A stretch of DNA of 64,000 bases from a virus, in the IMG/VR virus record IMGVR_UViG_3300036766_002289, positions 28,056 through 92,055 of that record. The stretch is one strand, 5' to 3'. The notes beneath the pieces were generated by a model, which saw only the letters and a list, made by a program, of their open reading frames with translations, made no database searches and was not told the DNA's origin. Made by a program: the position numbers and the translations under genes. Shown here piece after piece: positions 38,648 through 55,529 of this stretch; within the stretch, counting starts at the first letter, position 1; the number at the start of each line of letters is the position of its first letter.

Positions 38648-38653
38648 CTTTAG

Positions 38654-39456: not shown

Positions 39457-39461
39457 CTCAT

Positions 39462-39533: not shown

Positions 39534-39774
39534 CTTTTCTAGAGACTACTTAAAATGTTATTTCAACTTGTTTGTTGGGTTACTGGCCATGACTGGCATT
39601 ATTATTATACTTATTATGGCACTTATCGCCGTCGTTGTCAAGATTGTGGCTCAGACGAGAAACTTTAATGCGAATACCTTGGTTCGATGGTGGTGAAGAA
39701 TCCAGAAGGGATGCACGCCTTTTGACAACAATGTTTCTTGTTGCTTTGTCTATGGCAATAGGTATAATGTTGCT

Positions 39775-41082: not shown

Positions 41083-41419
41083 GAAAGTTGCTTTACAAAT
41101 TCAGGATTCGTGCTAGTATATATTGTTAGATGGGCAGTGTCCTCGACGGCTTGAGGGCTGGACTTATATTCCAGCACATGTGGTTCAACTCCATAACTGC
41201 CTACTTCATGAAGAATTTTTGGGTGAATACAATAGATCGGGCTTTAAGGCGATTAGGATACATGCCCGATACAATTAACGGTCTTTTAGATAAAGAAAAA
41301 GAAGCCGTTATCATTGAACAATACCTCTATATTTTGCGAGAAGATAATGAAGACTGTATGCCGCTTTCTTTGGAAGAGATGGCGGAATACGTCGTTGACT
41401 ACTTTAGAAAAGGTGTTAA

Positions 41420-41896
41420 ATGTTGACTCCGCGTGACCATTTGGATAATTTGGTCCGTCACATTGATCTAGTTCGTGAAGCATGTCTTTTGTTAGGTCGT
41501 CGGTTAATGGATTCTGGCCGACTTGAATTTGGCAGATTACTTATCGCTGCTGGATTCCACCATGATGTTTCCAAATTCTTCGGCATTGAATGGAATTATC
41601 TTCATGCAGGACGCGACGTTCCCAAAGAACAACTCGATTTAGCAATTAAACAACATACTCAAACCAACTCTCATCATCCCGAATATTGGGGTGGCGTAGA
41701 AAATATGCCAGAGATAGCAGTTGCAGAAATGGTCTGTGACTGGTATGCTCGTAGTCAAGAGTTTGGCACTTGCCTGCGTGACTGGATTAAGCAAAATGCA
41801 ATTGACAGATTCAAGATTGACCTAGAATCTGAGCAATACTTATGGATTTATAAGTTTGTAGACCTTCTTTTAGAAGACCAATTTGTGAGGAATTAA
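41420..41896 (+). CDS. possible HD-domain phosphohydrolase
   Basis: AAGFHHDVSKF and NSHHPEYWGG resemble H..HD and downstream His motifs; weak. Confidence 0.4.
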   Translation: MLTPRDHLDNLVRHIDLVREACLLLGRRLMDSGRLEFGRLLIAAGFHHDVSKFFGIEWNYLHAGRDVPKEQLDLAIKQHTQTNSHHPEYWGGVENMPEIAVAEMVCDWYARSQEFGTCLRDWIKQNAIDRFKIDLESEQYLWIYKFVDLLLEDQFVRN

Positions 41897-41898
41897 TT

Positions 41899-42234
41899 AT
41901 GGACAGACGAACTTGGTTCGCATCTTTGTTTGGCGGTGTTGCTGCTATCTTAGGTTATAAGACTGCACAGATTTCCAGTATGGGAGCAACAGAAGCCAGG
42001 CTTCTCAATGACCTGATCTCCAGTGGGGAGCAGGCAACAAAAAAAGTCAATGACCTTAGAGACTCAGGCTTAGTGTCTGACTACGACATTTTGACAAAAT
42101 GGATGGGTTATTCAGCAAATGATGCCACGGAGATGGTGACTCGTCTTAAAATTCAGAAACTTGAAGAAATTAAGCTGCAAGTTTTGGCTCAAAACCCACA
42201 GCTATTGGGAATTGGTGTTCCTAAAAATGCATAA
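41899..42234 (+). CDS. hypothetical protein
   Basis: ORF 111 aa. Confidence 0.4.
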   Translation: MDRRTWFASLFGGVAAILGYKTAQISSMGATEARLLNDLISSGEQATKKVNDLRDSGLVSDYDILTKWMGYSANDATEMVTRLKIQKLEEIKLQVLAQNPQLLGIGVPKNA

Positions 42235-42619
42235 AATAGCTTGGAAATCACTTCGTAAAGATGGAGGCATGGGACGTGCCTCCATTAATCATTTTACGTC
42301 CGATGGGAAGAAGACTTTATGCAATAAGCCTATTCCTGTCACCGAACTTTGTTTAGACTCCAAGCATGATTGTAAAAAATGTAGTGCAATAAAAACGCGG
42401 GCGGAAGATTATGTTAAAATAATGGCAGACAAGCCAGCTTATTTTAAGGAAGTGGTTGAATTGCTTGGTGGTCATTATGAGCCAGAAGGCGTTGCTTGGT
42501 GGGATAATCATGGCAATAAGAAAGATATGTATGTTGCCTATGGTCGTCTTGCTCCATTCATGGACAATAGTGACAATTTTAGAATGACTGATAATGCCTT
42601 ATATTATGCAAAATCTTAA
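42227..42619 (+). CDS. hypothetical protein
   Basis: ATG overlaps the upstream stop (ATGCATAA). Confidence 0.4.
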   Translation: MHKIAWKSLRKDGGMGRASINHFTSDGKKTLCNKPIPVTELCLDSKHDCKKCSAIKTRAEDYVKIMADKPAYFKEVVELLGGHYEPEGVAWWDNHGNKKDMYVAYGRLAPFMDNSDNFRMTDNALYYAKS

Positions 42620-42956
42620 AATAATCAGAAAAGCCATGCTGAAAGCAGCTAGGGCCGACACTTCATGTAGTCCAGAAGGATATGATAGGAAAAAGTCCCC
42701 TTTGCATCTGCATTGTGCTGCCGCCGCATGTATTGTTAAAGCCTTATTTAATGGCGAAATAGTGACGGGAAGAGTGAAAGGCATTCAGCATTATTGGAAT
42801 AGACTGCCAGATGGCGTCGAAGTAGATTTAACTTCTTGTCAGTTTGGTGGGGATGGATTTACGCCCTTCAAAAAGGGCAGGAAAGTTATAAGAAAAGGGT
42901 TGACGCCTTTAAGGTTTCTTTTATTTGCAGCTAGAGTTAGGAATGAATTGGTGTAA
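42594..42956 (+). CDS. hypothetical protein
   Basis: ORF 120 aa. Confidence 0.4.
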   Translation: MPYIMQNLKIIRKAMLKAARADTSCSPEGYDRKKSPLHLHCAAAACIVKALFNGEIVTGRVKGIQHYWNRLPDGVEVDLTSCQFGGDGFTPFKKGRKVIRKGLTPLRFLLFAARVRNELV

Positions 42957-42958
42957 TA

Positions 42959-43309
42959 ATGGAAAAAAGATATGTTGCAAGTTTGCAGGATGAAATCGAC
43001 AGGGATTGTTACAAAGATTTTTTTGAATCTGACAAATTAGAAGAAACGAAGCAACACGCTGACGAAAGAGCCGAAAAATACCAAAGATCGGCAGTTGTGT
43101 TTGACAGGCGTTTTGGCATAGTGTACAAGAAAGAGATTAAAAGAACTGGTGATACGGAAGTTAAGGTCGTGAAACCAATAATCAGTAAGCGTTCTAAGGT
43201 AGTGACGAAGCCAGAACCTGTGTCAGAATCTACACCGCCGATTAAGCGTGGTAGAGGGCGTCCTCCTAAGTCAGAATTCAAACCTGCATCTAATGATGAT
43301 TATTTTTAG
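42959..43309 (+). CDS. hypothetical DNA-binding protein with C-terminal AT-hook (KRGRGRPPK)
   Basis: AT-hook core GRP flanked by basic residues. Confidence 0.45.
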   Translation: MEKRYVASLQDEIDRDCYKDFFESDKLEETKQHADERAEKYQRSAVVFDRRFGIVYKKEIKRTGDTEVKVVKPIISKRSKVVTKPEPVSESTPPIKRGRGRPPKSEFKPASNDDYF

Positions 43310-43317
43310 GAGGATTT

Positions 43318-43734
43318 ATGTCTCTTGAAGAAGCATTGCAAACTAGATTGAAAAGCCTCCCTAACAAAAGGTACAAAAGCAATGAGATGTTTAATATAAT
43401 TAGCGAATTTTTATTATCTCCATTGCTCCCTGATATTATTGAACTTAATAATATCCTGCATTGGGTCGTCCTGAACAAGGATGGCAATTCTTCATCTATC
43501 GACATAAGATATGAGAAAAAGAAAAGATCAGGATTGTTGAGTTCTCTTTTTTGGGTTTTTAATCGGTGGGGAACTGGCTTGAGGATTAAATACGAAAAAG
43601 ACGGACAAATTTTTATTTGCTCGTATTATAGGCATAGCTTTTACTCTCTGGCTGAACAACTAAAAACTGCCTATTATGAAAAGTTGCATGATGCGTTTCA
43701 TGCTGGGTTTGTTATCGTTGATAAAACCAGATAG
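43318..43734 (+). CDS. hypothetical protein
   Basis: aggagg RBS; ORF 138 aa. Confidence 0.45.
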   Translation: MSLEEALQTRLKSLPNKRYKSNEMFNIISEFLLSPLLPDIIELNNILHWVVLNKDGNSSSIDIRYEKKKRSGLLSSLFWVFNRWGTGLRIKYEKDGQIFICSYYRHSFYSLAEQLKTAYYEKLHDAFHAGFVIVDKTR

Positions 43735-43743
43735 GGGAAAATT

Positions 43744-44136
43744 ATGAACCAGGAACAAATCATCTCACAAGTTAAGACAGTCGTAACGGATTGCCTTAAT
43801 GTTGATGAGGACGAAATCACTCTAGATTCTAGGCTTAGTGCCGATTTGGGGGCAGAGTCCATCGACTTTTTGGATTTGACATTCAGACTTGAAAGACAAT
43901 TCAATATAAGAATCCCACATGGCGACTTGTTCCCAACTGACCTTTTTAGGGATTTAGATAATTGTGTCGAAGGTGGTAAAGTTACACCTAAAGGAATTGA
44001 CTTGCTGAAGAGTAAAATTCCTTTTGCTGATTTTTCTGAGTGGGAGAAAAACCCACAATATGCTACCGTTACGGATTCCTTTACCGTTGGGACTTTGGTA
44101 AAGTATATTGGGATGCAGCAAACCATTATCAGCTAG
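43744..44136 (+). CDS. acyl-carrier-protein-like (PP-binding) domain protein
   Basis: N-terminal about 80 aa with DLGAESIDFLDL (ACP Ser-attachment-like DSL/ESI helix II motif). Confidence 0.5.
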   Translation: MNQEQIISQVKTVVTDCLNVDEDEITLDSRLSADLGAESIDFLDLTFRLERQFNIRIPHGDLFPTDLFRDLDNCVEGGKVTPKGIDLLKSKIPFADFSEWEKNPQYATVTDSFTVGTLVKYIGMQQTIIS

Positions 44137-44272
44137 GAGTTGAAATGTATTACTTGTTTACACAATGTCCCAATGGCGATTGGGAGTTGATTGTTGAATC
44201 AAAGGACTTTGCATACATCAACAGGGTGGAAAGAGAGTTGAATTATCACGGCATTATTACTGGTATGGTGGG

Positions 44273-45049
44273 ATGGTAGAACCGAACCAAATATACTGCT
44301 GTGACTATCTTGAACTACTTAGGCAAATTCCAGATAACTCTGTATCCTTAGTGTTGTCAGACCCGCCTTTTGGTATCAACTATAGCAATAACTATACCAA
44401 AAAAAAGCATGAAGTCCTACAAGGCGATGCTAGCAAGTTCTCTTATCTAGAATTTGGCAAGGAAGCCTTCAGAATTCTTAAAGATGACACCGCAATCTTT
44501 GTTTTTACTGGCTGGAGCGAATATCCAGACCACTATAAACAATTAGAGTCTTGCGGATTCTCTATGAAGGAACCAATTATTTGCCAGAAGAGAGCTTCTG
44601 GCAAAACTGATTTATACGGTTCTTTTCAAACCAATTCCGATTGGATTATTTTTGCTCATAAGGGCAGATTTAAGTTCAGGAAGACTACTTTAGTAAAGAA
44701 TAAGAAGGCTGGTGTAATTCCTAATATTGGAAGGTCGCCCGTGCCAGAGTATAAAACGCGATTTCCCTCTTGTTGGTTTGGTGAAGAATATCCTTGGTCA
44801 AGTGAGAATTCTGCGTGGCAGAAGGTCAACGGGATTTATCACCCAACTATAAAAGGGCAAATGTTCCTGATGTGGTTGATCCTTTTATCTACAGAACCTG
44901 GGGATTTAGTTGTTGATCCTTTTGTTGGGTCTGGGACAACTGCTGTGGCAGCAAAAATGGCTGCTAGGCAGTTTTTTGCTAGTGACGTATCACCAGAGTT
45001 TTGTGAGCAAGCAAGGAAGCGATTGACATTGTGTGATTTTGTAGTATAG
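44273..45049 (+). CDS. DNA methyltransferase (beta-class N6-adenine/N4-cytosine)
   Basis: Motif IV DPPF (LSDPPFG) precedes motif I VVDPFVGSGTT. Confidence 0.7.
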   Translation: MVEPNQIYCCDYLELLRQIPDNSVSLVLSDPPFGINYSNNYTKKKHEVLQGDASKFSYLEFGKEAFRILKDDTAIFVFTGWSEYPDHYKQLESCGFSMKEPIICQKRASGKTDLYGSFQTNSDWIIFAHKGRFKFRKTTLVKNKKAGVIPNIGRSPVPEYKTRFPSCWFGEEYPWSSENSAWQKVNGIYHPTIKGQMFLMWLILLSTEPGDLVVDPFVGSGTTAVAAKMAARQFFASDVSPEFCEQARKRLTLCDFVV

Positions 45050-45400
45050 TAAAGGTGTATGTATGAAAATGGAGACCTGTATGCATGTCGCCGCCAGAAT
45101 TTGGTGCGACAAGGAATTTGAGCATATCGTAATGGATACGGATGTCGCAATGAAGATTGCTAAGATATTGTTCTTTGTAGCCAATGCAGATGAGGCTAGT
45201 CGTGTATTATTGGCGGATACAACTAAGTCACAGTGAAGTGTATTGGTCGTCGAGTATCAATTATGGTCTGTTCTCAGTACCGCGTGAAGCGGTTTTGGAT
45301 GGGCATATGCTTAATGCATTTTTGACTTCTGTTGTGAAGATTGATAAAATTTCAAAAGAACAATATAATGAATTTATGGTCGATTGATATATAAATTCAT

Positions 45401-45472
45401 GCTACTCTGGCAGAGAAGTGATGCACCGCTCTAGTAAGGCGGACAAGGTGGGCGCGATACCCACGGGTAGCT
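45401..45472 (+). tRNA. atypical tRNA-like gene (anticodon loop CTAGTAA reads AGT; non-canonical T-loop CGCGATA)
   Basis: Acceptor GCTACTC/GGGTAGC, D-stem GCA/TGC, anticodon stem CCGCT/GGCGG. Confidence 0.35.
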
Positions 45473-45476
45473 CTGC

Positions 45477-45548
45477 GCCACTTTGGCAGAGCGGTTATGC
45501 ACTGGTTTTGTAAACCAGACAATCTGGGTTCGACTCCCAGAGGTGGCT
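45477..45548 (+). tRNA. tRNA-Thr(TGT), second diverged copy
   Basis: Acceptor GCCACTT/AGGTGGC, anticodon arm CTGGT-TTTGTAA-ACCAG, T-arm CTGGG-TTCGACT-CCCAG. Confidence 0.55.
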
Positions 45549-45551
45549 CTT

Positions 45552-45788
45552 ATGAAATTTGATTTTAAAAATCGAAAGTATCATAGTCTAAAGATTACAG
45601 CCACCAATCCAAAAGATATTTGGTTAAGTGATGACGAAGGTAATCTAGTCCAAAAAGAAGATGTTTTAATGGATACTAGCTTAATTCCTGGCAATTACTT
45701 TGTTGAGTTTGGGCTTGGCAATAAGCAATACTCAATCAAGCTAGATAAAAATTTAGAATTCAAACAATCAGATTTTGAAGGAAATTAA
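45552..45788 (+). CDS. hypothetical protein
   Basis: ATG 45552 just after the tRNA. Confidence 0.4.
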   Translation: MKFDFKNRKYHSLKITATNPKDIWLSDDEGNLVQKEDVLMDTSLIPGNYFVEFGLGNKQYSIKLDKNLEFKQSDFEGN

Positions 45789-46009
45789 TGGAAGATATAG
45801 ATTCGACTGAAGTAATTGACAATGAATATTGGATAGTTAGTCTTGGGAATGTGGCCGAATTAATGGGTCGGGCGCAGTTAAGTATAGGTAAATCCATTGC
45901 AAGTCCCAACCATGTTCAAGGTGAATTGGCGTTAGCCTTTTTGAAAAAGGCTGTCAGAGAACTTGAAGAAACGCTTGATAAAAATTCAAGCGAACAATCG
46001 AAGGAGTGA
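45788..46009 (+). CDS. hypothetical protein
   Basis: ORF 73 aa. Confidence 0.4.
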   Translation: MEDIDSTEVIDNEYWIVSLGNVAELMGRAQLSIGKSIASPNHVQGELALAFLKKAVRELEETLDKNSSEQSKE

Positions 46010-46012
46010 GTC

Positions 46013-46372
46013 ATGTCCACTGAATTGCGGGCTGCTATCATTACTCTTTTGGAGAATGGTGGTCAGGTAAACATGGACGCTGACCTTGCTTGTTACTCAA
46101 CCCGTGACGGATACTACTTTGTTGAATATTTTCTTAATCCAGATACTGTTGATACCATGAACCTTACTGCCCATGAAAAGAAACTTTTGGATAATGAAGA
46201 AGAGTTGATGGAGATATTTGATAAGCCAGAAGAAGCGGCAGACTTCTACATGAGGCTTACTAATGGCAGAATGATTCCTGTGCCAAGTTATTGCCGTGAT
46301 AAGTCCCCAAAGAAGTCCATCAAGGAAAAAGTTGTTGAAGTAAAAGTTGCAGAAAAAGATGATTATTTCTAG
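46013..46372 (+). CDS. hypothetical protein
   Basis: ggag RBS; ORF 119 aa. Confidence 0.45.
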   Translation: MSTELRAAIITLLENGGQVNMDADLACYSTRDGYYFVEYFLNPDTVDTMNLTAHEKKLLDNEEELMEIFDKPEEAADFYMRLTNGRMIPVPSYCRDKSPKKSIKEKVVEVKVAEKDDYF

Positions 46373-46385
46373 TATATAAGTGTAT

Positions 46386-46457
46386 GCGGCTGTAACTCAA
46401 TGGCAGAGTGCTGGTTTTCCAAGCCAGATGTTGTGGGTTCAAGTCCCATCAGCCGCT
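46386..46457 (+). tRNA. tRNA-Gly(TCC), second diverged copy
   Basis: Acceptor GCGGCTG/CAGCCGC, D-stem ACTC/GAGT, anticodon arm CTGGT-TTTCCAA-GCCAG, T-loop TTCAAGT. Confidence 0.55.
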
Positions 46458-46461
46458 CTGA

Positions 46462-46851: not shown

Positions 46852-47340
46852 TTATGTCTTATATGGGCGATCTTTGGGATTGAGCTTATTCCATAATATC
46901 TTAACTGGCTTTTTGAAATAATGTCCGACAAATCCCCCTATTTGTTTCATGCCAAGTCTTTTTCTTATTGCATTTTCTAAATTTGTTGATTGACACTCGA
47001 CCCTGGTGGTTGAGAAGAACCATATGAATGTCATTGATGGCACAGCAATATACCAAGGTGCGTAAATTGGCAATATAAAGAATGAGCCTAATACCCCAAG
47101 AATTACTAGTATATGTAATGTGACAAGTGTATAAAAGCTAAACCATAGCCATAATGGTGCTGGCGGAATTGGTTTGTCAACGATTCTTCTTAAGCTTGAA
47201 AGGAATTTTTTGGTGATTTCATTATTACTCTTTTTACCGATTTCCTCATCAAGTTTGATGAGCAACTCGGTAAGTTTGTCTTCTGGCAGGTACGTTAATG
47301 CTAGTGCTACGATACGCGGAGAGTCATCGCTTGCTACCAT
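46852..47340 (-). CDS. membrane protein (minus strand)
   Basis: 162-aa ORF with three or four TM segments. Confidence 0.45.
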   Translation of the reverse strand: MVASDDSPRIVALALTYLPEDKLTELLIKLDEEIGKKSNNEITKKFLSSLRRIVDKPIPPAPLWLWFSFYTLVTLHILVILGVLGSFFILPIYAPWYIAVPSMTFIWFFSTTRVECQSTNLENAIRKRLGMKQIGGFVGHYFKKPVKILWNKLNPKDRPYKT

Positions 47341-47385: not shown

Positions 47386-48189
47386 GTGCAACAGGAAATT
47401 GAAAAAAATATTATGAATAAGATTATCATTAAAAACGAGAAGCAAATAAGAGGTATTCGTAAAAGTTGTCAAATCGCAGCAGCAACTTTAGAATATGCTA
47501 AAAAATCTATTGCTGTAGGAATGACTACAGAAGAATTGGACAGGGCTATAGAAAACTTCATTAGGTCTAAGGGGGCGACTTCAGCGACATTAGAGTATAA
47601 AGGTTTTCATAAAGGTCAGCCAAAATTTCCAAAGAGTTGCTGTATTTCAGTAAATGAAGAAGTCTGTCATGCAATTCCAGATAGCTATATTATCAAAAAC
47701 GGAGACATAGTTAGTATAGATGTAGCTGTTATCTTGAATGGTTATTATGGTGATAATTGTACTACAGTTCCAGTTGGTAACATATCAGATGACGCCAGAC
47801 ATTTGATTGAGGTCGCTAAAAAATGCTTAGATTTAGGAATAAGACAAGTTGCTCCTGGTCGCAAAACTGGTGTGATTGGTCAAGCAATTTATCAATATGC
47901 AATTTTACAGGGCTGTACAATAGTAGAGGAATTTTGTGGTCATGGTGTAGGAATGGCTTTTCATGAACAACCACAAATTCTTCATGTTGCAAAACAAGAT
48001 GATGGTGATATAATGAAGCCTGGGATGATTTTCACCATAGAACCGATGGTCAATTTGGGCGGTCCTGAAGTAATAATGGATAATGATGACCAATGGACCG
48101 TTAGAACCGTGGACCAAAGTTTGTCGGCTCAATTTGAGCATTCGGTTCTGGTAACGACTAATGGATATGAAATACTAACTTTACCATGA
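47386..48189 (+). CDS. map: methionine aminopeptidase (type I)
   Basis: Conserved FCGHGVG, metal-ligand Asp/His/Glu context, overall MAP length. Confidence 0.8.
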   Translation: MQQEIEKNIMNKIIIKNEKQIRGIRKSCQIAAATLEYAKKSIAVGMTTEELDRAIENFIRSKGATSATLEYKGFHKGQPKFPKSCCISVNEEVCHAIPDSYIIKNGDIVSIDVAVILNGYYGDNCTTVPVGNISDDARHLIEVAKKCLDLGIRQVAPGRKTGVIGQAIYQYAILQGCTIVEEFCGHGVGMAFHEQPQILHVAKQDDGDIMKPGMIFTIEPMVNLGGPEVIMDNDDQWTVRTVDQSLSAQFEHSVLVTTNGYEILTLP

Positions 48190-48464
48190 TTTATTTTATA
48201 CTAATGGCCAACTGTTTGTCGATGGGTCTGGGGCTTTATCTCGCATTTGATGGACAATTTGTATTAAGCATCGTTTGTTTATTGATTTCATCAATAGGAT
48301 TTCGTCATCTTTGCATGGAAATTGATAAGCAGGCCCGAAGGAAGAAAAAAGAGAAGAGAATAAAACCAAAACTTGAAAAGTCGAAACCTAAAAAGGTGGA
48401 GAAGGTCAAGGAACAGATGAGTGTGGAAGCTCAACTTAGACTTAATAAGTTCTCCATTAACTAG
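48186..48464 (+). CDS. membrane protein with Lys-rich tail
   Basis: ORF 92 aa. Confidence 0.4.
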   Translation: MIYFILMANCLSMGLGLYLAFDGQFVLSIVCLLISSIGFRHLCMEIDKQARRKKKEKRIKPKLEKSKPKKVEKVKEQMSVEAQLRLNKFSIN

Positions 48465-48472
48465 GGGGCATT

Positions 48473-49231
48473 ATGTTAGAGATTATCGGCTCCGTCGCAA
48501 CTGTTTTGCTTATCATTTTGATTGTTGTCTCTCTTAAAAAGAGTGGCAAAATCGTTTTCATGGGCAGGTCTGAGAAAATAGATTTTGAAAAAGACATTAC
48601 TACCATTCCACCGATCCCCATATCTGCGGCCACTTGTAGCCATAGCTGGGATATAGTAGATGATAAATTGCTAGAAATGCCGCATGAGAAGAAGCATGTC
48701 CTGGTATTACAATGCCGTACTTGCGGAATGTTAGATAAGACTATGGCAGTGACTAGCACTGCGCCCAAACCGCTCCCACCCCCGCCGCTACCACCATGTA
48801 ATCATAGTTGGGTTGCAGTAACTGATAATACGCTTGATGTAGCACACGAAAAGAAAATTGTTGTTATCTTAACCTGCAAGAATTGTGGGGCTATAGAGAA
48901 GACTGTTGAGACCACTAGCAAAGCACCCCCGCCACCACAAGTTCCACTTCCAAAGGCTGAATGCCGCCATAAATGGGAAGTGGAAAAGAGAGTGTTGCTA
49001 GATTCTGCATACGAGCAAATGTTAGAGAGCATTAAGGTTAAGACAAGTTCTTATAGTAGTGCCAAAAAGGTTGACCCAAGTAAAGAATTAGATTTGGATT
49101 TAAATAAGGCACCAACTTGGATGTTTCAAAAGACTTATGTGTGTATCAGGGTTTGCACGTTATGTGGCGAGATTGATAAGACAATAGCTTCGAATTTTGA
49201 TAAAGAAGAAAACGAGGAGGAGATATCATGA
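48473..49231 (+). CDS. membrane-anchored protein with three internal C-x-H-x-W...C-x2-C-G repeats separated by Pro-rich linkers
   Basis: Repeats CSHSWDIV..CRTCG, CNHSWVAV..CKNCG, CRHKWEVE..CTLCGE. Confidence 0.5.
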   Translation: MLEIIGSVATVLLIILIVVSLKKSGKIVFMGRSEKIDFEKDITTIPPIPISAATCSHSWDIVDDKLLEMPHEKKHVLVLQCRTCGMLDKTMAVTSTAPKPLPPPPLPPCNHSWVAVTDNTLDVAHEKKIVVILTCKNCGAIEKTVETTSKAPPPPQVPLPKAECRHKWEVEKRVLLDSAYEQMLESIKVKTSSYSSAKKVDPSKELDLDLNKAPTWMFQKTYVCIRVCTLCGEIDKTIASNFDKEENEEEIS

Positions 49232-49406
49232 GCGAATTTACTTGGCCTTGGGAATGGGATTGGAATTGGCCTTTTGCCGCTATTTGTGGCGTTGGTCTGT
49301 TTGTCCTTGGAATCGTTCTACATCTTGTCTGTTTTCCTGGTATTGCTGCCATTATTATCGGCGGTGTAGTTGGTGCTTTTGCAGGAACTTATGAGTGGTT
49401 TGAACT

Positions 49407-49712
49407 ATGAAATCTCCATCAGTTTGCCCATGTTGCGGGCTTACTTGTTTCCAGGGACGGTTTAAGATATGTAAGAAAGAACATTGGGATTATCCTGATG
49501 ATGGTGCTGAAGTATGGTGCCAGTTTTGTAATACATGGTTTATGTGGAATGAAGAGAAACAGATTGCAAAAGTGATAGAGACCGCATTCCCGCGTGGCCA
49601 TAGGGGTAATAAGGGTGAGATTGTCGGCAAGCCGATTAAAGTTTTAGCAACGGCTGAATGGGATATGGTGTCGCAACAAAGAACCGACCAAGAAGACCTT
49701 ATCTGGGAGTAA
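49407..49712 (+). CDS. Cys-rich hypothetical protein
   Basis: CPCCG..C...CQFCN. Confidence 0.4.
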   Translation: MKSPSVCPCCGLTCFQGRFKICKKEHWDYPDDGAEVWCQFCNTWFMWNEEKQIAKVIETAFPRGHRGNKGEIVGKPIKVLATAEWDMVSQQRTDQEDLIWE

Positions 49713-49715
49713 ACT

Positions 49716-50060
49716 ATGAGTACGTTCAGTAGAGATATGGGTGAGTGTGTTTTGTACACGTTACTTAATCTTTCAGATGATAAAAATAACAATGATGGTC
49801 TACCGACCGAAATGGCTGGTTGGGTGAAAGAAAAAATTGAAGCTTTTGTTGTAAGTCCATACTCAGACATGGAGTTATATGATTTTCTTGATAGCGTAGC
49901 GAGGATTCCAATTGAAAGATTTGGTGGTGGTTGCGTAGGAGATATTAGTGGATTCATCCAGGCAGCGTGTGATGTTAAAAAATGTTATGACCGTCCCGAA
50001 GATGGTGATAAGAAGTTTCTTGATAAGGAAGAATGTAGGAAAAAATTGGAGAAAAGATGA
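49716..50060 (+). CDS. hypothetical protein
   Basis: ORF 114 aa. Confidence 0.4.
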   Translation: MSTFSRDMGECVLYTLLNLSDDKNNNDGLPTEMAGWVKEKIEAFVVSPYSDMELYDFLDSVARIPIERFGGGCVGDISGFIQAACDVKKCYDRPEDGDKKFLDKEECRKKLEKR

Positions 50061-50485
50061 CAGGCATATTTGGATTTTTTGAAGAATACAGGTTCCTTTC
50101 TAACTTTTACCCAGCCAAAGTTGAGTTCGATGGTCTGGAGTACAGTTCCACCGAACACGCATACCAAGCCGCTAAAACGGATGACCCTGCTGAAAGACGT
50201 AGAATCAGGGAAACCCAGAAATTTGGCGAAGCTAAGAGATTAGGAAAAAAAGTCAAGATACGTCCTGATTGGGAAAAGGTTAAGTTCGAAGTAATGGAGG
50301 ACTTAGTAAGACAGAAGTTTACTAAGCATAAAGAGTTAAAGGAAAAGCTCTTGGAAACAGGCGACCAATACTTAGAAGAGACAAACACTTGGGGCGATAA
50401 AATTTGGGGAGTCTGCAAAGGTGTAGGGCAGAATCATCTTGGGAAAATCCTAATGAAAATTAGGGGAGAATTAAGAAATGAGTGA
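50057..50485 (+). CDS. NADAR (YbiA/DUF1768) domain protein
   Basis: FLSNFYPA..F.G..YSSTEHAYQAAK signature. Confidence 0.6.
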   Translation: MTGIFGFFEEYRFLSNFYPAKVEFDGLEYSSTEHAYQAAKTDDPAERRRIRETQKFGEAKRLGKKVKIRPDWEKVKFEVMEDLVRQKFTKHKELKEKLLETGDQYLEETNTWGDKIWGVCKGVGQNHLGKILMKIRGELRNE

Positions 50486-50768
50486 TATTCAAACAGGGAT
50501 TCGCTATACTATTCAACGACAGGGATTTAGTTATGATGAAGAAGAAAGGGAATGGACAACTTGTTATCATGAGGGTAACTTGATTGACACTCCAGACCGT
50601 GAATGGATTGCAGCTATGATGGAGTTTTTATCTAAAACAGAAAGAAAATCTTATCGTTTCCGTATATTGAAAATTGAGACGAGTGTTATAGGCATGGACA
50701 CGATTAGGGAAGCAATTATTGCGGACCTTGTTAAGTCTGCATATGGGGATCAATCTAAGCCCCATTAA
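50478..50768 (+). CDS. hypothetical protein
   Basis: ORF 96 aa. Confidence 0.4.
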   Translation: MSDIQTGIRYTIQRQGFSYDEEEREWTTCYHEGNLIDTPDREWIAAMMEFLSKTERKSYRFRILKIETSVIGMDTIREAIIADLVKSAYGDQSKPH

Positions 50769-51081
50769 GAAAATCTTTATACCTGTCTTTAAGCTCTTGA
50801 TAGTTTTTCTTTTTTTGGGTGCCCTGTCGGAATAGGCAAAGAATAATTGTACTAAAGAAATTGTAGGCTTTGCCTTTTTCTCTGTCATATCTTGGCAGTT
50901 TGTCGAAACAAATCATGACTGCTTCTTGGATATAGTCATCTCGGTCGGTGAGTATTTTCTTAATGTCTAAACCATTAACTATTCGCTCTGCGACCCAATA
51001 AAAAGCTTCGCAGAGCTTGTCTTCACTTATTTTATTATCTAAAAAATCAGAAACTGCTTGTTCAAATTCTGAAGCATTCAT
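50755..51081 (-). CDS. minimal sigma-factor-like protein (sigma70 region 2 only; T4 gp55-like)
   Basis: IQEAVMICFDKLPRYDREKGKAYNFFSTIILCLFRQ resembles sigma70 region 2.1-2.2; minus strand. Confidence 0.45.
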   Translation of the reverse strand: MNASEFEQAVSDFLDNKISEDKLCEAFYWVAERIVNGLDIKKILTDRDDYIQEAVMICFDKLPRYDREKGKAYNFFSTIILCLFRQGTQKKKNYQELKDRYKDFLNGA

Positions 51082-51461
51082 GAATTAAGATAGTGCGATA
51101 ATATCTTTAATTACTTTTTCTAGTAATTTTTCCTTTTTAGCTTCGTCTACATTGTATAGTAAACCATTGAGTTTAGTGACCCACTGTTCAAGTTGGTTGA
51201 CGATTAATGCATCATCTTGACTTGTCGTCAAATCCACATTGTTATTGGTGAGGGCGGCAATCTCCTCAGTCTTATTCTGTGTGAGCCATTCGTTAAATTT
51301 CATACTTTATTTATATTAACCATATATATTTTAATGAAGAATTATTGGCTAGATCGAAGAAAAGAGAAAAAAGAAAGTAAAAGCTGGAATGTAGCCGATT
51401 TTAATCGGATTCTTTTGAATAAAATGAGGCAAGCTCAATTGAACAAAATAAGAAAAAAACC

Positions 51462-51884
51462 TTAGATGAATATAATTGCGGCTGCAATAGTATTAAAGTA
51501 AAGAGTGCCTTTTAGACCAATAGCCGTGTTGTTTTCATGCATATTTTCCTGAACATCTATATTATGATACATGATTTCTAGGAATATTTTCTTCTGCCAG
51601 AGTGGTTCTCTTGCTGTAGCCATTAGTTTTTGCAACATTCCGTTAATATGTTCTTTGTTCTTAGCGACGGCAGAACCTTTAGCCTCAAGGTTCATTTGCA
51701 GTCCTTGCGTAGCTCTTTCTTCAGTAATTAAATCGAATTTTAAGTCATTAATGCCGAATCCATTGATTTTTGGGATTTGACTCAATGATTGGTTAATAAC
51801 AATCTGAATTTCTCTCATGGCTTCTTTGCCTTCTGGAGAGATGTTTTCTACCAACCTATTCTCGATGTATTGCTGAAAGTCCAT
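51462..51884 (-). CDS. hypothetical protein (minus strand)
   Basis: ORF 140 aa. Confidence 0.45.
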   Translation of the reverse strand: MDFQQYIENRLVENISPEGKEAMREIQIVINQSLSQIPKINGFGINDLKFDLITEERATQGLQMNLEAKGSAVAKNKEHINGMLQKLMATAREPLWQKKIFLEIMYHNIDVQENMHENNTAIGLKGTLYFNTIAAAIIFI

Positions 51885-51934
51885 ATTAGTTATATACTAT
51901 TGACGCAGTGCATTTTTTTTGCTACTATTGGGGA

Positions 51935-52825
51935 ATGAGCAATATCTATGAAACAAATGTACCTAATTTTGTTTGCAAACGGGGCAAGGTACGGGACACT
52001 TATGCCTATGGTGATACGATGTTAATCATCGTAACTACCGATAGAATAAGTGCTTTTGATTGGGTATTTCCAAATACCACAATTCGAGATAAAGGAAAAA
52101 TTCTTCAAGGTATATCATCTTATTGGGCTGATGCTTTGAATTTAAGGTATCATGAGATCAATACTGACTTGAACCATCTGCCAGAAGATTTTAGAAAACC
52201 AGAATTTGAAGGCAGGGCAATGTTGGTGGAAAAAGCGGATGTTATCCCTTTTGAATGCGTGGTTCGTGGATACTTAGCTGGTTCAGCATGGAAAGAATAC
52301 AAGCAAACAGGTGAAGTTTGCGGTATTAAGTTGCCAAGCGGTCTTAAAGAAAATCAACATCTTATAAAGCCACTTTTTACACCCGCTACTAAAGCAGAAT
52401 CAGGGCACGATCAAAATGTAACTTTTGACTATATGGCAGGTAAGATTGGTCTTGACTTAGCCGCCGAACTAGAATCTTTGAGTTTGGATATTTATTCAGA
52501 AGCATCCCAGATAGCCTGGAATCGTGGTATCATAATAGCCGATACTAAGTTCGAATTTGGTGTATTGCCACATTCTAGCAATGTATTGATACTGATAGAC
52601 GAAGTTTTAACACCCGATAGCTCTCGTTTCTGGCCATTAGAAGATTATAAATTAGATGGGCCTATTAACTCATTCGATAAACAATTTGTGCGTGATTTCA
52701 TAGAGCAATCAGGGTGGGATAAGAATAGTCCCCCACCAGCATTACCAGAAGACGTTATAATGAAGACTAGGGACAAATACTTAGAAGCTTATGAAAAAAT
52801 AACGGGGCACAGTTTATGCAAATAA
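51935..52825 (+). CDS. purC: phosphoribosylaminoimidazole-succinocarboxamide (SAICAR) synthase
   Basis: TTDRISAFD motif and overall similarity; ATG 51935 chosen over the listed GTG 51908. Confidence 0.8.
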   Translation: MSNIYETNVPNFVCKRGKVRDTYAYGDTMLIIVTTDRISAFDWVFPNTTIRDKGKILQGISSYWADALNLRYHEINTDLNHLPEDFRKPEFEGRAMLVEKADVIPFECVVRGYLAGSAWKEYKQTGEVCGIKLPSGLKENQHLIKPLFTPATKAESGHDQNVTFDYMAGKIGLDLAAELESLSLDIYSEASQIAWNRGIIIADTKFEFGVLPHSSNVLILIDEVLTPDSSRFWPLEDYKLDGPINSFDKQFVRDFIEQSGWDKNSPPPALPEDVIMKTRDKYLEAYEKITGHSLCK

Positions 52826-53050
52826 AAGAATTAGTCCAGAAAATGGAAATCACTGATATCCTCTGTGATATTTGTGATAAAAGTTGTTACCATGAAAATG
52901 GATATACCCCAGAATATGTGTGCATAGATCAGAGTTGGGGTTATTCTTCTAATAAAGATGGCACTAGAACACAATGCGATATTTGTGAAAGCTGTTTTGA
53001 TAAAGTTAAAGACTTTATAGTGAATACTTTAAAAGGAAAGGTAAGAGAAG

Positions 53051-53329
53051 ATGTTCATATGTAATTTTTGTAAGAAATCGGTTCCATGTAGGACACCTTG
53101 TAAGAAAGTAGTTATTCAGACTGTGATGTATCATCATCCACATCGACCAAAGGTGCATCGTAAATGGATATTGGACAAGCAAGGTAAGCCCAGACTTGAT
53201 TGGTTAGATGATAAGGGCGGAATTGGTCCGCAAATCGCTGTTGAAGTCCCAGCATGTCCAACCTGTGGCTTGGAACAAGAACTTAAGAGAGAAAAAAGAG
53301 AAACTGAACAATTGAGGCTTATAGGATGA
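53051..53329 (+). CDS. Cys-rich hypothetical protein
   Basis: CNFC..C...CPTCG. Confidence 0.4.
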   Translation: MFICNFCKKSVPCRTPCKKVVIQTVMYHHPHRPKVHRKWILDKQGKPRLDWLDDKGGIGPQIAVEVPACPTCGLEQELKREKRETEQLRLIG

Positions 53330-53468
53330 AAAGTGCTAGAGAAATCGCTGAACATATAGCCTATGTGTTTAATGATTACACTGATTATGACGCAGAATCA
53401 GCAGAGGAGTTTGTTGTAGAAGTCACTTCCATTATAGAAGATTATGTTAAAGACATAAAGGGTGAAAA

Positions 53469-53726
53469 ATGCAAAAAGAAGCAAAAGGAATAGAAGGTTT
53501 TCTTTTAATTTACCCAGATTTTTCGACTGCCGAACCCACTGGTGAAAAAAATAGGTTTGGCCAAGAAAGAGTTAAGTGCAAGGATACAATTGTAGTATTT
53601 CGTGTATACGAAAAACCTGGCACGGGCTTTAAAGATTATGATATTCGTCACCCTGATTTGAAGATTAAGTTGTTAGATGGGGTTTTATACGAAACTGAAG
53701 AAGGAAATTACATTGATTATGAGTGA
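53469..53726 (+). CDS. hypothetical protein
   Basis: ORF 85 aa. Confidence 0.4.
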   Translation: MQKEAKGIEGFLLIYPDFSTAEPTGEKNRFGQERVKCKDTIVVFRVYEKPGTGFKDYDIRHPDLKIKLLDGVLYETEEGNYIDYE

Positions 53727-54054
53727 TAATCCTAATAAACTAAAAGCGATTCTTTTAGAGGCCGCCGACACCGAGACACAAAAGCAATTTGCTAAGATGC
53801 TTGCGGAGCAATGTGCAGTTGCCGACCGTGAAGCTAAGGATCATTATGATTGGTTCTTCATTCCTTCCCCAACAGAATACGAACGTATGAAGAAGTATAA
53901 TCAGGCTCCAGATTATGATAAATGCCCTAAATGCGGTAAAGGTCGTATTATTATAGAGAAACGAACTTGGCCTTTAGGAGATAGTCTTACTCTTAAGTGC
54001 AGATGGAGTGGTGGCGGTTGTGATTTCTCAGAACTAATTTCGGATGATTTATAA
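53677..54054 (+). CDS. hypothetical protein with C-terminal Zn ribbon
   Basis: CPKCG...C..GGGC. Confidence 0.4.
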   Translation: MGFYTKLKKEITLIMSDNPNKLKAILLEAADTETQKQFAKMLAEQCAVADREAKDHYDWFFIPSPTEYERMKKYNQAPDYDKCPKCGKGRIIIEKRTWPLGDSLTLKCRWSGGGCDFSELISDDL

Positions 54055-54485
54055 TGAAAAGTTGGCAGGAACAGTGTGCTGAAATCATTAGTTTCCTAGA
54101 AGACATTTTCAAAGAAACAAAATATCGTATTGTTTTCAGAAAATATGAGACTGACCAAAAAGAAGATGAATGGTTATTCTTTGTTGAATCAATACGTGGC
54201 GATGGTGGACGCCATGATGGGACTGCGATTACATGGGTGAGTGTTGGTGGCAAAAACATAGAAGAATTGCCTGGTTTGTTGCTTCTGAAAGCACAACAAC
54301 GTGTTAATGAATGGCAGCAAGAAGGTCTAAAAGAAGTGGAAAAGAAAGCTTTAGAATTAGAGAAAGCTAAGAATGAACTAGACAAAAGACTAAACACTAA
54401 GATGGATAGTCTTGCAAAGAGAGTGAACAATGGATGTAAAGCAAGTGATTGTGATTCGCCGCGACCTGAAAATGCGGAGGGGTAA
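54054..54485 (+). CDS. hypothetical coiled-coil protein
   Basis: ORF 143 aa. Confidence 0.45.
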   Translation: MKSWQEQCAEIISFLEDIFKETKYRIVFRKYETDQKEDEWLFFVESIRGDGGRHDGTAITWVSVGGKNIEELPGLLLLKAQQRVNEWQQEGLKEVEKKALELEKAKNELDKRLNTKMDSLAKRVNNGCKASDCDSPRPENAEG

Positions 54486-54846
54486 GGAATGTAGCCAAGC
54501 TGCACATGCAGCTATGATATGGCTAACTAGTAGAATTAGAACCAAACCAAATTGGATCATAAGATTCTTTCTATGGCTTTTTAGACGAACTGCCGCAATA
54601 CGTTTATCTACGGAAGAACAAGAATGGATTGATGGGTCTTTTACTAAAATCACTTTACAAGTGGATAGTCAAGATGAGTTGCTGAGATATTACACTATGG
54701 CTAAGTCGAAAGGTTTAACAGTAAGTTTGGTTACAGATGCAGGTAAAACAGAATTTAATGGCGTACCTACTTTCACTGCGATAGCTATTGGACCCCATGA
54801 AGCTTCTAGGATAGATGAAGTAACAAGAAGTTTAAAACTTTATTAA
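54430..54846 (+). CDS. peptidyl-tRNA hydrolase, PTH2 family
   Basis: VIVIRRDLKMRRGKECSQAAHAA matches the PTH2 N-terminal signature. Confidence 0.6.
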   Translation: MDVKQVIVIRRDLKMRRGKECSQAAHAAMIWLTSRIRTKPNWIIRFFLWLFRRTAAIRLSTEEQEWIDGSFTKITLQVDSQDELLRYYTMAKSKGLTVSLVTDAGKTEFNGVPTFTAIAIGPHEASRIDEVTRSLKLY

Positions 54847-55529
54847 GGACGAGAATGGACGAAATTATAGATACTGATGTTATAATCGCTATAATTGTAG
54901 GCATTGTTGTCGTGTTGTTTCTTCTGATTAGCATCATATTCGACTTATTTGACTAATGGTTCCTGACGTAGACATAAAATATGATCCAAGATTCTCTTTA
55001 GAAGAGAATTGGGTGTGTTGTACTACTGCTATTCAGGAGGCACAGGAAAGAGGTGTGTTGGTAACACCTTTAACTGTGTTTAATGATGAAGGCAAAATCG
55101 TTGGTTGGTACTTACATGGTTGGGAGCCACCTCCCGTTTTTTACACGTATCGACCACCCATGTAGTGTAGCAGTCTTCTGTGCAAAAAGTCCTATCTACT
55201 TCTGGTATTAGTTTTGGCATTTTCATTTCTTTTTGACACCCAAAACATATTAACTTGGTGGTCTCGGACATATAAATCCTTTCACTTTCATAGTTTTGTG
55301 TTGTATTACAGGGAAGTTGTTAGGTGGCCCACAAGTCACTTGAGCGATAATTGCTGGTTGTGGGAATTCCATAGCTACCACTTCAAAACATGCTCTAGCA
55401 GTATTGGGTTTACTGCAATCACATGGATTAGGTACTACCTGCCGTTCATTTCCACCAATTGGTAGATGACCGATTGAGCCGCCGCCGATTTTCATCTGTT
55501 TTATTTATCCAGTATGCTTAAATAATGGT

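What the first reader, a model, noticed from the sequence alone, without database searches (positions are those of the whole stretch)
47386..54846. Translation-support genes (MAP, PTH2-type peptidyl-tRNA hydrolase) accompanying the tRNA set
A full-length methionine aminopeptidase and an archaeal/eukaryotic-type PTH2 are encoded near the tRNA-rich region. Together with about 45 tRNAs this suggests the element buffers host translation, for example against tRNA-cleaving or ribosome-stalling defences, or re-tunes it for its AT-rich codon usage.
Basis: partly seen in the sequence, partly recalled or inferred. Interest (0 to 1): 0.55.

Follow-up and report, generated by a model that had tools for sequence, protein, structure and literature searches.

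The report
Huge-phage methionine aminopeptidase and PTH2 genes
A giant bacteriophage carries intact-looking copies of two protein-synthesis housekeeping enzymes (one trims the first methionine off new proteins, one frees tRNAs stuck to aborted peptides) next to its large tRNA gene set, which is real but already a described habit of very large phages.

Summary
Both genes are present as described. 47386-48189(+) is a type I methionine aminopeptidase (MetAP) with all five metal ligands; its true start is probably the ATG at 47413. 54430-54846(+) is a PTH2-family peptidyl-tRNA hydrolase. It keeps the catalytic Lys/Asp/Thr and has a confident PTH2 fold.

The window comes from a huge phage of about 590 kb. 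It holds 39-41 tRNA genes, not 45, and all lie upstream of the region.

The order tRNA-Gly / DUF2784 / MetAP / NADAR / purC / ... / PTH2 recurs in four relatives. Both enzymes have their closest identifiable cellular homologues in bacteria, including Bacteroidota. The PTH2 is not a direct archaeal import.

Across 80 IMG/VR viral loci, PTH2 sits inside or beside tRNA arrays. tRNA density is 0.45/kb within 1 kb and falls with distance. MetAP shows no such gradient.

Papers on phage XacN1, mycobacteriophage tRNA arrays and jumbo phages already link PTH2 to tRNA sets and ribosome rescue. MetAP is annotated in published huge-phage genomes but not discussed.

Verdict: a real, ordinary new member of a known kind. 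Low interest, with two small loose ends.

The parts
47386..48189 (+). Type I (Ia-like) methionine aminopeptidase. The probable real start is the ATG at 47413. It has a clade-specific 7-residue insert (FHKGQPK, residues 74-80) in the loop that corresponds to E. coli G64/Y65.
54430..54846 (+). PTH2-family peptidyl-tRNA hydrolase, 138 aa. K19, D103 and T107 are conserved. An extra helix (residues about 42-50) sits in a variable-length insert. The first 56 nt overlap the end of the upstream ORF.
8345..46458 (+). tRNA-rich region with 39 tRNA genes by ARAGORN plus 2 found only by Rfam. It covers 16 amino acids; no Cys, Leu, Ser or Tyr tRNA lies in the window.
46852..47340 (-). DUF2784-like membrane protein. 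It is a conserved neighbour immediately upstream of MetAP on the opposite strand.
50057..50485 (+). NADAR-domain protein (YbiA / T4 gp30.3-like). It is a conserved neighbour of MetAP and is not a translation factor.
50755..51081 (-). Small protein with weak matches to sigma-70 region 2 and to the phage late sigma factor family. It is conserved in relatives.
51908..52825 (+). SAICAR synthetase (purC), an auxiliary purine-synthesis gene. It is syntenic in all relatives.
53469..53726 (+). o85, a clade-restricted small protein. In relatives it lies directly upstream of PTH2 and overlaps it. Here it is cut short by an insertion.
53677..54485 (+). Two ORFs (o125 53677-54054 and o143 54054-54485) inserted between o85 and PTH2. 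The last 13 residues of o143 correspond to the tail of the ancestral o85 protein. The same insertion is present in IMGVR_UViG_3300003310_000099.
54956..55165 (+). o69, a small conserved ORF downstream of PTH2 in relatives. Function unknown.

Best explanation
These are two working auxiliary enzymes of a huge phage of about 590 kb that probably infects Bacteroidota. Each appears to have been captured from bacteria and kept because it sustains phage protein synthesis.

PTH2 cuts the ester bond of peptidyl-tRNAs (and N-acyl-aminoacyl-tRNAs) that fall off or are stranded on ribosomes. This returns host and phage-encoded tRNAs to the usable pool.

MetAP removes the initiator methionine from deformylated nascent phage proteins.

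In a long infection that expresses hundreds of genes and about 40 of its own tRNAs, possibly after host gene expression has been shut down, extra copies of these two normally essential activities would keep tRNA recycling and N-terminal maturation from becoming limiting.

Shown: family membership, conserved active sites, PTH2 fold, conservation and synteny in the clade, and the physical PTH2-tRNA array association in many phages.
Inferred: enzymatic activity, timing, and that the benefit is capacity rather than counter-defence.
For: - Family scores are above curated cut-offs.
- All MetAP metal ligands are conserved.
- PTH2 K19/D103/T107 are invariant in 69 homologues.
- The PTH2 model has pLDDT 91 and hits only PTH2 structures: E 6e-11 to 4e-6, with the next hit at E 0.27.
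- Both genes are retained, with the same neighbours, in LR756511.1 (595 kb), a 596 kb JGI contig and a 373 kb IMG/VR contig, despite inversions and insertions between them. A 57 kb contig keeps the purC-to-PTH2 part within the stretch fetched.
- The MetAP's nearest named relatives are Bacteroidota MetAPs at 53-57% identity.
- A PTH2 53% identical to this one lies in an ordinary Bacteroidota-like chromosomal context, next to a Por_Secre_tail protein and an MMPL protein.
- In 80 IMG/VR loci, tRNA density is 0.446/kb within 1 kb of PTH2 and falls to 0.187/kb at 7.5-10 kb. After dereplication, 42 of 68 clusters have a tRNA within 10 kb and 20 have one within 1 kb.
- A full-length class I release factor and a TilS-like gene flank PTH2 in a 248 kb phage contig. 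GGQ release-factor-like genes lie within 10 kb of PTH2 in 6 of 80 loci.
- From my own knowledge: phage lambda fails to grow on E. coli pth(rap) mutants because bar minigenes sequester tRNA as peptidyl-tRNA, so Pth activity can limit phage growth.
Against: - No expression or activity data exist.
- No peptide deformylase, which MetAP needs upstream, was found in the window. The rest of the genome could not be read.
- MetAP is not tRNA-linked in other phages.
- The neighbours NADAR and purC are not translation genes, so the 7.5 kb stretch is not one functional module.
- PTH2 embedded in tRNA arrays fits a counter-defence role equally well.
- The capacity argument is generic and hard to falsify from sequence.
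Confidence: 0.6

Rival explanations
1. Counter-defence. PTH2 is kept inside tRNA arrays because it undoes damage from host tRNA-targeting immunity or toxins. It would deacylate aminoacyl-tRNAs that GNAT toxins (TacT/AtaT/ItaT type) have N-acetylated. It could also release peptides from peptidyl-tRNAs stranded on ribosomes after anticodon nucleases cut tRNA. The phage tRNAs would then replace the lost species.
For: - Bacterial Pth reverses TacT acetylation of Gly-tRNA in vitro (PMC9241777).
- Iyer et al. 2021 propose exactly this rescue role for jumbo-phage PTH2.
- tRNA density peaks next to PTH2.
- NADAR genes, candidate ADP-ribose-processing or anti-defence enzymes, recur near PTH2 and MetAP.
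Against: - No defence system or toxin target is identifiable here.
- Closely related PTH2 genes sit in ordinary bacterial chromosomal contexts, which points to a housekeeping-type activity.
- Nothing separates this from general tRNA recycling, since the chemistry is the same.
- It offers no role for MetAP.
Confidence: 0.25
2. Passenger genes. MetAP and PTH2 are recently captured host genes with little or no benefit to the phage, carried because a 590 kb genome tolerates them.
For: - Both have close bacterial homologues.
- The region is a patchwork with insertions and inversions.
- MetAP is rare in viral contigs: 64 loci in 2.9 million.
Against: - Both are conserved with intact active sites across relatives that have diverged to 57-72% identity.
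- The MetAP clade has acquired and kept its own 7-residue insert.
- PTH2 relatives occur in at least 310 viral stretches and have a non-random position.
Confidence: 0.08
3. Altered function. The PTH2 (with its extra helix) or the MetAP (with its insert in the S1-pocket loop) acts on a substrate other than the canonical one. Examples would be a specific phage tRNA species, a modified N-terminus, or a ribosome-bound complex.
For: - The PTH2 has a variable-length insert after helix 1, modelled as a helix at residues 42-50.
- The 7-residue MetAP insert occurs in P0121-P0142 and four scattered lower hits, and is absent from the other listed hits, including every hit a source names as Bacteroidota.
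Against: - The PTH2 insert varies in length and sequence even among close homologues, as an unconstrained loop would.
- Bacterial chromosomal PTH2s of about 127 aa also carry extra residues there.
- Catalytic and pocket residues are otherwise canonical.
Confidence: 0.07

Closest known systems
PTH2 genes of jumbo and tRNA-rich phages (Xanthomonas phage XacN1 ORF295, Agrobacterium phage Atu_ph07 gp680, Sinorhizobium phage phiM12 gp226, cluster C mycobacteriophages such as Myrna gp36)
   Same: Same Pfam family and 37-44% identity. They are carried by large phages with many tRNAs and are already interpreted as translation or ribosome-rescue support.
   Different: This copy belongs to a separate clade of roughly 370-600 kb uncultured phages. 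It overlaps its upstream ORF. It is 8 kb from the nearest tRNA rather than inside the array. In the 6 kb fetched around each of the cultured-phage genes checked, no tRNA is adjacent.
Archaeal and eukaryotic Pth2 (S. solfataricus 1XTY, M. jannaschii 2ZV3, A. fulgidus 3ERJ, human PTRH2/Bit1 1Q7S)
   Same: Same fold (TM up to 0.86 normalised to the target) and the same catalytic Lys/Asp/Thr positions.
   Different: Only 30-39% identical. The phage protein has about 20 extra residues after helix 1. In a neighbour-joining tree it groups with bacterial and phage PTH2s rather than with the archaeal and human structures, but bootstrap support is only 54-60%.
Bacterial chromosomal PTH2 (Isosphaeraceae, Ilumatobacteraceae, Gammaproteobacteria, Flavobacterium and other Bacteroidota)
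   Same: 42-53% identity, similar length (about 120-130 aa) and the same N-terminal motif KQVIVIRxDLxMRRGKE.
   Different: These are cellular genes in ordinary chromosomal neighbourhoods, not next to tRNA arrays.
Bacterial type Ia methionine aminopeptidase (E. coli Map, Bacteroidota MetAPs)
   Same: Full-length pita-bread catalytic domain with no N-terminal extension. All metal ligands and the S1 residues C70, H79, F177 and W221 (E. coli numbering) are kept. Identity is 53-57% to Bacteroidota enzymes.
   Different: It is encoded by a phage and is not in the secY-map-infA type operon; no IF1 gene lies nearby in any viral locus. It carries a 7-residue insert between the residues that correspond to E. 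coli G64 and Y65.
Cyanophage and huge-phage peptide deformylase (PDF)
   Same: A phage-borne copy of an N-terminal processing enzyme, proposed to sustain translation during infection (PMC3660681; PMC7162821).
   Different: It is a different enzyme at the next step of the same pathway. PDF has been characterised biochemically. No held paper that mentions jumbo or huge phages also mentions MetAP, and the PHROGs library has no MetAP-like family.

Membership tests
PTH2 peptidyl-tRNA hydrolase (PF01981 / TIGR00283) | Sequence profile match above the curated threshold | tested here: met
   PF01981 scores 104.1 bits (cut-off 23) and TIGR00283 scores 94.9 bits (cut-off 82). The narrower archaeal equivalog NF003314 scores 104.4, below its cut-off of 126.
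PTH2 peptidyl-tRNA hydrolase (PF01981 / TIGR00283) | Alpha/beta PTH2 fold | tested here: met
   The AlphaFold model has pLDDT 91.1. The 14 Foldseek PDB hits with E <= 4e-6 are all PTH2 structures, and the next hit has E 0.27.
PTH2 peptidyl-tRNA hydrolase (PF01981 / TIGR00283) | Catalytic Lys and Asp (S. solfataricus K18 and D86; that these are the catalytic residues is from my own knowledge of Fromant et al. 2005), plus the neighbouring Thr | tested here: met
   K19, D103 and T107 align to these positions and are invariant in 69 homologues.
PTH2 peptidyl-tRNA hydrolase (PF01981 / TIGR00283) | Hydrolysis of peptidyl-tRNA or N-acetyl-aminoacyl-tRNA | not testable with these tools
   Needs an enzyme assay or pth(ts) complementation.
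Type I methionine aminopeptidase (TIGR00500, peptidase M24A) | Profile match above threshold, and type I rather than type II | tested here: met
   TIGR00500 scores 297.8 bits (cut-off 171.35). The type II model TIGR00501 scores 88.3 (cut-off 222.65). PDB MetAPs match at E about 1e-63.
Type I methionine aminopeptidase (TIGR00500, peptidase M24A) | Five dinuclear-metal ligands (E. coli D97, D108, H171, E204, E235) and catalytic H79/H178 | tested here: met
   D112, D123, H186, E219, E251, H95 and H193 are all conserved, as they are in 10 relatives.
Type I methionine aminopeptidase (TIGR00500, peptidase M24A) | Canonical S1 pocket loop (E. coli residues 59-70) | tested here: inconclusive
   Y62, Y65 (F here) and C70 are kept. 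A 7-residue insert lies between the G64 and Y65 equivalents in this phage clade. Its effect on specificity is unknown.
Type I methionine aminopeptidase (TIGR00500, peptidase M24A) | Removal of N-terminal Met from peptides | not testable with these tools
   Needs an enzyme assay.
Phage tRNA-array-associated rescue gene set (PTH2 with RF-1 and tmRNA, as described for mycobacteriophage arrays) | PTH2 located inside or directly beside a tRNA array | tested here: not met
   In this window the nearest tRNA is 7.97 kb upstream of PTH2. In 20 of 68 dereplicated IMG/VR clusters it is within 1 kb. This copy is therefore loosely, not tightly, array-linked.
Phage tRNA-array-associated rescue gene set (PTH2 with RF-1 and tmRNA, as described for mycobacteriophage arrays) | Accompanying release factor or tmRNA | tested here: not met
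   ARAGORN and Rfam find no tmRNA in the window. No release factor turned up among the ORFs scanned. The rest of the genome was not available.

The most novel reading that the evidence does not exclude
Two readings are not excluded.

1. PTH2 is a dedicated anti-defence enzyme. It would be embedded in phage tRNA arrays because it, together with replacement tRNAs, neutralises host tRNA-acetylating or tRNA-cleaving immunity.

2. The MetAP of this huge-phage clade, with its own 7-residue insert in the substrate-pocket loop, has a changed N-terminal specificity tuned to phage proteins.

Either would turn a routine annotation into a mechanistic counter-defence or proteome-maturation story.
Probability: 0.2. 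Interest if true: 0.55.

Novelty: new member of a known kind. Interest (0 to 1): 0.22.

Why it matters
This adds one more case to the picture that the largest phages carry their own pieces of the translation apparatus. It also supplies three small, checkable points.

1. Both enzymes look bacterial in origin, and possibly host-derived. This does not fit the published suggestion that jumbo-phage PTH2 is a relic of an ancient archaeo-eukaryotic-like replicon.

2. PTH2, but not MetAP, is positionally tied to tRNA arrays across many uncultured large phages. This extends an observation made before for mycobacteriophages.

3. Phage MetAP is rare and undiscussed, and in this clade it carries a private insert near the substrate pocket.

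None of these changes how phage translation takeover is understood. They make cheap experiments (pth(ts) complementation, GNAT-toxin rescue) worth doing.

Tried and rejected
- Nucleotide search of the 7.5 kb region against phages found only one real relative, LR756511.1, at 68% identity over 32% of the region.
- The sigma-70 promoter and terminator scan gave counts equal to shuffled sequence, so it says nothing about operon structure.
- PHROGs gave no function. PTH2 is phrog_1866, labelled 'unknown', and there is no MetAP-like family.
- Pfam on about 17 small ORFs in and beside the region gave only weak or no matches.
- I followed o85, the conserved upstream partner of PTH2. It has only 17 homologues, all in this clade, and no domain. 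In this phage an insertion cuts it short, so it is unlikely to be needed for PTH2 function.
- An E. coli IF1 probe, used to test whether viral MetAP loci are really bacterial ribosomal-operon fragments, found nothing.
- The first tree attempt, with Biopython BLOSUM distances, timed out. The replacement neighbour-joining tree is poorly resolved, so the bacterial-versus-archaeal placement rests mainly on pairwise identities.
- I could not read Powers et al. 2005, and the held library did not return Fromant et al. 2005 on Pth2 active-site residues. The identity of the catalytic residues is therefore from my own knowledge.
- I did not look for a peptide deformylase in the rest of the genome, because only the window is available.
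- Penultimate-residue counts of window ORFs (24 of 56 small residues) say nothing about MetAP demand.
- dN/dS was not attempted, because synonymous sites are saturated at 57-72% protein identity.

Full report
**What the window is.** The 64 kb window has 36-45% G+C and almost all long ORFs on the + strand. ARAGORN finds 39 tRNA genes between 8345 and 46458. Rfam finds 36, two of which ARAGORN misses (13746-13817 and 14342-14433), giving 41 in all. The PTH2 protein is also recorded on a 590,099-base JGI contig. The best nucleotide relative is LR756511.1, a 595 kb 'uncultured phage'. The closest relative overall is a 373 kb IMG/VR contig. The window is therefore the tRNA-rich part of a huge phage.

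**The observation.**
- ORF 47386-48189(+) is a type I methionine aminopeptidase. TIGR00500 scores 297.8 bits against a cut-off of 171, and the type II model is far below its cut-off. It aligns end to end with solved E. coli and P. aeruginosa MetAPs at E about 1e-63.
- I aligned it with the E. coli sequence, recalled from memory. I checked that the recalled sequence has the expected residues at positions 79, 97, 108, 171, 178, 204 and 235. All five metal ligands (D112, D123, H186, E219, E251) and both catalytic histidines are present.
- Homologues start at the residue that corresponds to M10, so the ATG at 47413 is the likelier start.
- ORF 54430-54846(+) matches PF01981 (104 bits) and TIGR00283 (above its cut-off).
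- Aligned with S. solfataricus Pth2, its K19, D103 and T107 fall on K18, D86 and T90. These three are invariant in alignments of 15 and 69 homologues.
- An AlphaFold model built on the 69-sequence alignment has mean pLDDT 91.1. In the PDB it matches only PTH2 structures (E 6e-11 to 4e-6, TM up to 0.86 on the target). The next hit has E 0.27.
- One database gene call (P0002, 110 aa, starting at M29) would lack K19. Homologues cover residues 1-138, so the long form is the right one.

**What lies between and around.**
- The 6.2 kb between the two genes is not a translation cluster.
- It holds a NADAR-domain protein (50057-50485) and SAICAR synthetase purC (51908-52825).
- It holds a weak sigma-70 region-2-like ORF on the minus strand (50755-51081).
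- It holds a membrane protein with repeated Cys-containing modules (48473-49231).
- It holds many small ORFs without family matches.
- The promoter and terminator scan is indistinguishable from shuffled sequence.

**Conservation.**
- In LR756511.1 the order tRNA-Gly(tcc), o119, DUF2784 (opposite strand), MetAP, NADAR, o72, o140, purC, o92b..., o85, PTH2, o69 is the same as here. Other genes lie between purC and PTH2.
- A 57 kb ENA contig keeps purC ... o85-PTH2-o69.
- A 596 kb JGI contig has the MetAP-to-purC block inverted, yet still within 7 kb of PTH2.
- The 373 kb IMG/VR contig shares almost every ORF of 46-55 kb, with the PTH2 block inverted.
- MetAP and PTH2 hits on four further metagenomic contigs share the same longest-contig length: 57,125, 36,120, 32,126 and 27,147 bases. 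This suggests that both genes sit on the same contigs.
- The two genes are thus stable members of this clade's genome, with active sites intact at 57-72% identity.
- In relatives the small protein o85 directly precedes PTH2 and overlaps it. Here two ORFs are inserted, and the last 13 residues of o143 are the old o85 tail. o85 has only 17 homologues and no recognisable domain.

**Origin.**
- The nearest MetAPs are about 22 clusters on metagenomic contigs of up to 623 kb. The next hits are at 52-57% identity, and every one a source names is from Bacteroidota: Salinivirgaceae, Prolixibacteraceae, Mariniphaga and Bacteroidales.
- For PTH2, a pattern-based scan of one genome per GTDB species returned 534 loci at 42-52% identity; every one of the 80 kept is bacterial. 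They include isolate or complete genomes of Isosphaeraceae and chromosomes of Ilumatobacteraceae.
- This scan could only find sequences that share the two N-terminal motifs used as patterns. It is therefore biased against archaeal sequences.
- One 53%-identical PTH2 (P0082) lies on a 327 kb contig among ordinary bacterial genes. One of them carries a Por_Secre_tail domain, which from my own knowledge is typical of Bacteroidota.
- Archaeal and human structures are 30-39% identical in the Foldseek alignments.
- A neighbour-joining tree puts phage and bacterial sequences together, apart from five of the six archaeal and human PDB sequences; A. fulgidus falls just inside the 60% clade. Bootstrap support is only 54-60%.
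- 'PTH2 type' is therefore correct, but the gene is best read as part of a bacterial-plus-phage PTH2 pool. This does not favour the idea of Iyer et al. that jumbo-phage PTH2 is a remnant of an ancient replicon, although my tree is too weak to settle the point.

**Is it tied to the tRNA set?**
- In this window MetAP starts 928 nt after the last tRNA, and PTH2 starts 7.97 kb after it.
- I fetched up to 10 kb either side of PTH2 relatives in IMG/VR. At least 310 viral stretches matched, and the 80 best were kept.
- 48 of the 80 loci have a tRNA within 10 kb, 23 have one within 1 kb, and 26 hold five or more, up to 41.
- tRNA density is 0.446/kb within 1 kb of the gene and falls to 0.187/kb at 7.5-10 kb. 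413 of 437 tRNAs are on the same strand as PTH2.
- After dereplication at 80% identity there are 68 clusters. 42 have a tRNA within 10 kb and 20 have one within 1 kb.
- The same analysis of 62 of the 64 viral MetAP loci shows 0.067/kb within 1 kb and no decline with distance.
- A GGQ release-factor-like gene lies within 10 kb of PTH2 in 6 of 80 loci. In one 248 kb contig a full-length class I release factor and a TilS-like gene flank PTH2.
- PTH2 is therefore linked to tRNA arrays as a general habit of large phages. MetAP is not, and its position here is a feature of this clade only.
- I have no whole-genome permutation control, so the gradient is the only internal control.

**Mechanism.**
- The most economical reading is that both are active enzymes that supplement host capacity. 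PTH2 recycles tRNA from dropped-off or stranded peptidyl-tRNA. MetAP completes N-terminal methionine excision.
- That phage growth can be limited by Pth activity is established for lambda on pth(rap) hosts (my own knowledge).
- The counter-defence version uses the same chemistry. Bacterial Pth reverses tRNA acetylation by TacT (PMC9241777). Iyer et al. proposed rescue after tRNA cleavage.
- Sequence cannot separate these two readings. I put about 0.6 on capacity support and about 0.25 on counter-defence.
- The tRNA set favours A-ending codons, which the phage prefers (GAA 0.73, CAA 0.66, AAA 0.59, CCA 0.49; GC3 0.32). This fits codon matching, but there is no host genome to compare with.

**Novelty.**
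- Phage PTH2 is annotated in XacN1, Atu_ph07, phiM12, K64-1 and many mycobacteriophages.
- It was counted among translation genes of a 56-tRNA phage in 2018.
- It was found in about 96% of cluster C mycobacteriophage tRNA arrays, some arrays also carrying RF-1 and tmRNA genes.
- It was discussed for jumbo phages in 2021.
- Methionine aminopeptidase is annotated in at least five huge-phage GenBank files of Al-Shayeb et al.. No held paper that mentions jumbo or huge phages also mentions MetAP, and PHROGs has no MetAP family.
- The related enzyme peptide deformylase is a well-known phage auxiliary gene.
- The finding is therefore a new member of a known kind.

**Loose ends.**
- A 7-residue insert (FHKGQPK, residues 74-80) is present in the MetAP clade P0121-P0142 and in four scattered lower hits (P0149, P0176, P0200, P0222). 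It is absent from the other listed hits, including all those named as Bacteroidota. It lies in the loop that lines the S1 pocket in E. coli MetAP (the pocket assignment is from my own knowledge).
- NADAR genes recur near both MetAP and PTH2 in distant phages.

Noticed in passing
window 50057-50485 (+); also L002 28523-28993, L092 7272-7763 and 14177-14611, L085 5815-6255: NADAR-domain (YbiA / T4 gp30.3-like) genes recur within a few kb of MetAP or PTH2. This holds in this clade, in distant MetAP-bearing viral contigs (L116, L125, L127, L152) and in XacN1. Some relatives have two copies. They may be involved in ADP-ribose processing, tRNA repair or anti-defence.
   Followed up: partly
window 47605-47625 (MetAP residues 74-80): A 7-residue insert (FHKGQPK) lies between the equivalents of E. 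coli MetAP G64 and Y65. It is present in the huge-phage MetAP clade (P0121-P0142) and in four scattered lower hits (P0149, P0176, P0200, P0222), and absent from the other listed hits, including all those named as Bacteroidota.
   Followed up: partly
window 53469-54485: The small gene o85, which in relatives directly precedes and overlaps PTH2, is interrupted here by two inserted ORFs (o125, o143). The last 13 residues of o143 are the former o85 tail. They are encoded in the 56 nt that overlap the PTH2 start in another reading frame.
   Followed up: yes
window 54430-54513: One public gene call for this PTH2 (P0002, 110 aa, JGI) starts at Met29 and so omits the catalytic Lys19. The 138-aa form is supported by all homologues.
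   Followed up: yes
window 51908-52825 (+): A full-length SAICAR synthetase (purC; NF010568 scores 379.6 bits) is conserved in synteny in all relatives. It is a purine-biosynthesis auxiliary gene.
   Followed up: partly
window 50755-51081 (-): A 108-aa ORF has weak matches to sigma-70 region 2 (E 0.0017) and to the PHROG 'late sigma transcription factor' family (E 3e-4). It is conserved in relatives, where the precomputed Pfam hit is also weak.
   Followed up: no
window 55530-62978 (+): A 2482-aa ORF is made of long, highly similar Gly/Ser-rich repeats (SGAV.SG..ASGQ.GQFH motifs). It may be a fibre-like or surface protein.
   Followed up: no
window 2246-2698 and 5238-5885 (+): A Prok-JAB domain protein and a ThiF/E1-like protein lie 2.5 kb apart, with two glycine-rich 313-315 aa paralogues between them. 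This may be a ubiquitin-like conjugation or deconjugation set in a phage.
   Followed up: no
window 48473-49231 (+): A 252-aa protein has an N-terminal membrane helix and three or four repeats of a C.H.W ... C..CG module. It gives short hits to three PHROGs of unknown function.
   Followed up: no
window 10009-15238 (+): Several paralogous Cys-rich ORFs (10009-10449, 11442-11909, 13156-13698, 14627-15238) are interleaved with the tRNA genes. The three scanned have no Pfam match. They recall the endonuclease-like genes reported in mycobacteriophage tRNA arrays.
   Followed up: partly
L091 10001-11837 (248 kb JGI viral-like contig): PTH2 is followed after one small ORF by a full-length class I release factor (PCRF + RF-1). 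A tRNA-Thr ends 184 nt upstream of PTH2, and a TilS-like ATP_bind_3 gene lies 4 kb downstream. This is a tighter translation-rescue cluster than in the window.
   Followed up: partly
L088 1205-1957 (Sinorhizobium phage phiM12): A RelA/SpoT-family gene lies about 0.9 kb upstream of the phiM12 PTH2, separated by three small genes. This may be relevant because toxic small alarmone synthetases modify tRNA 3' ends.
   Followed up: no
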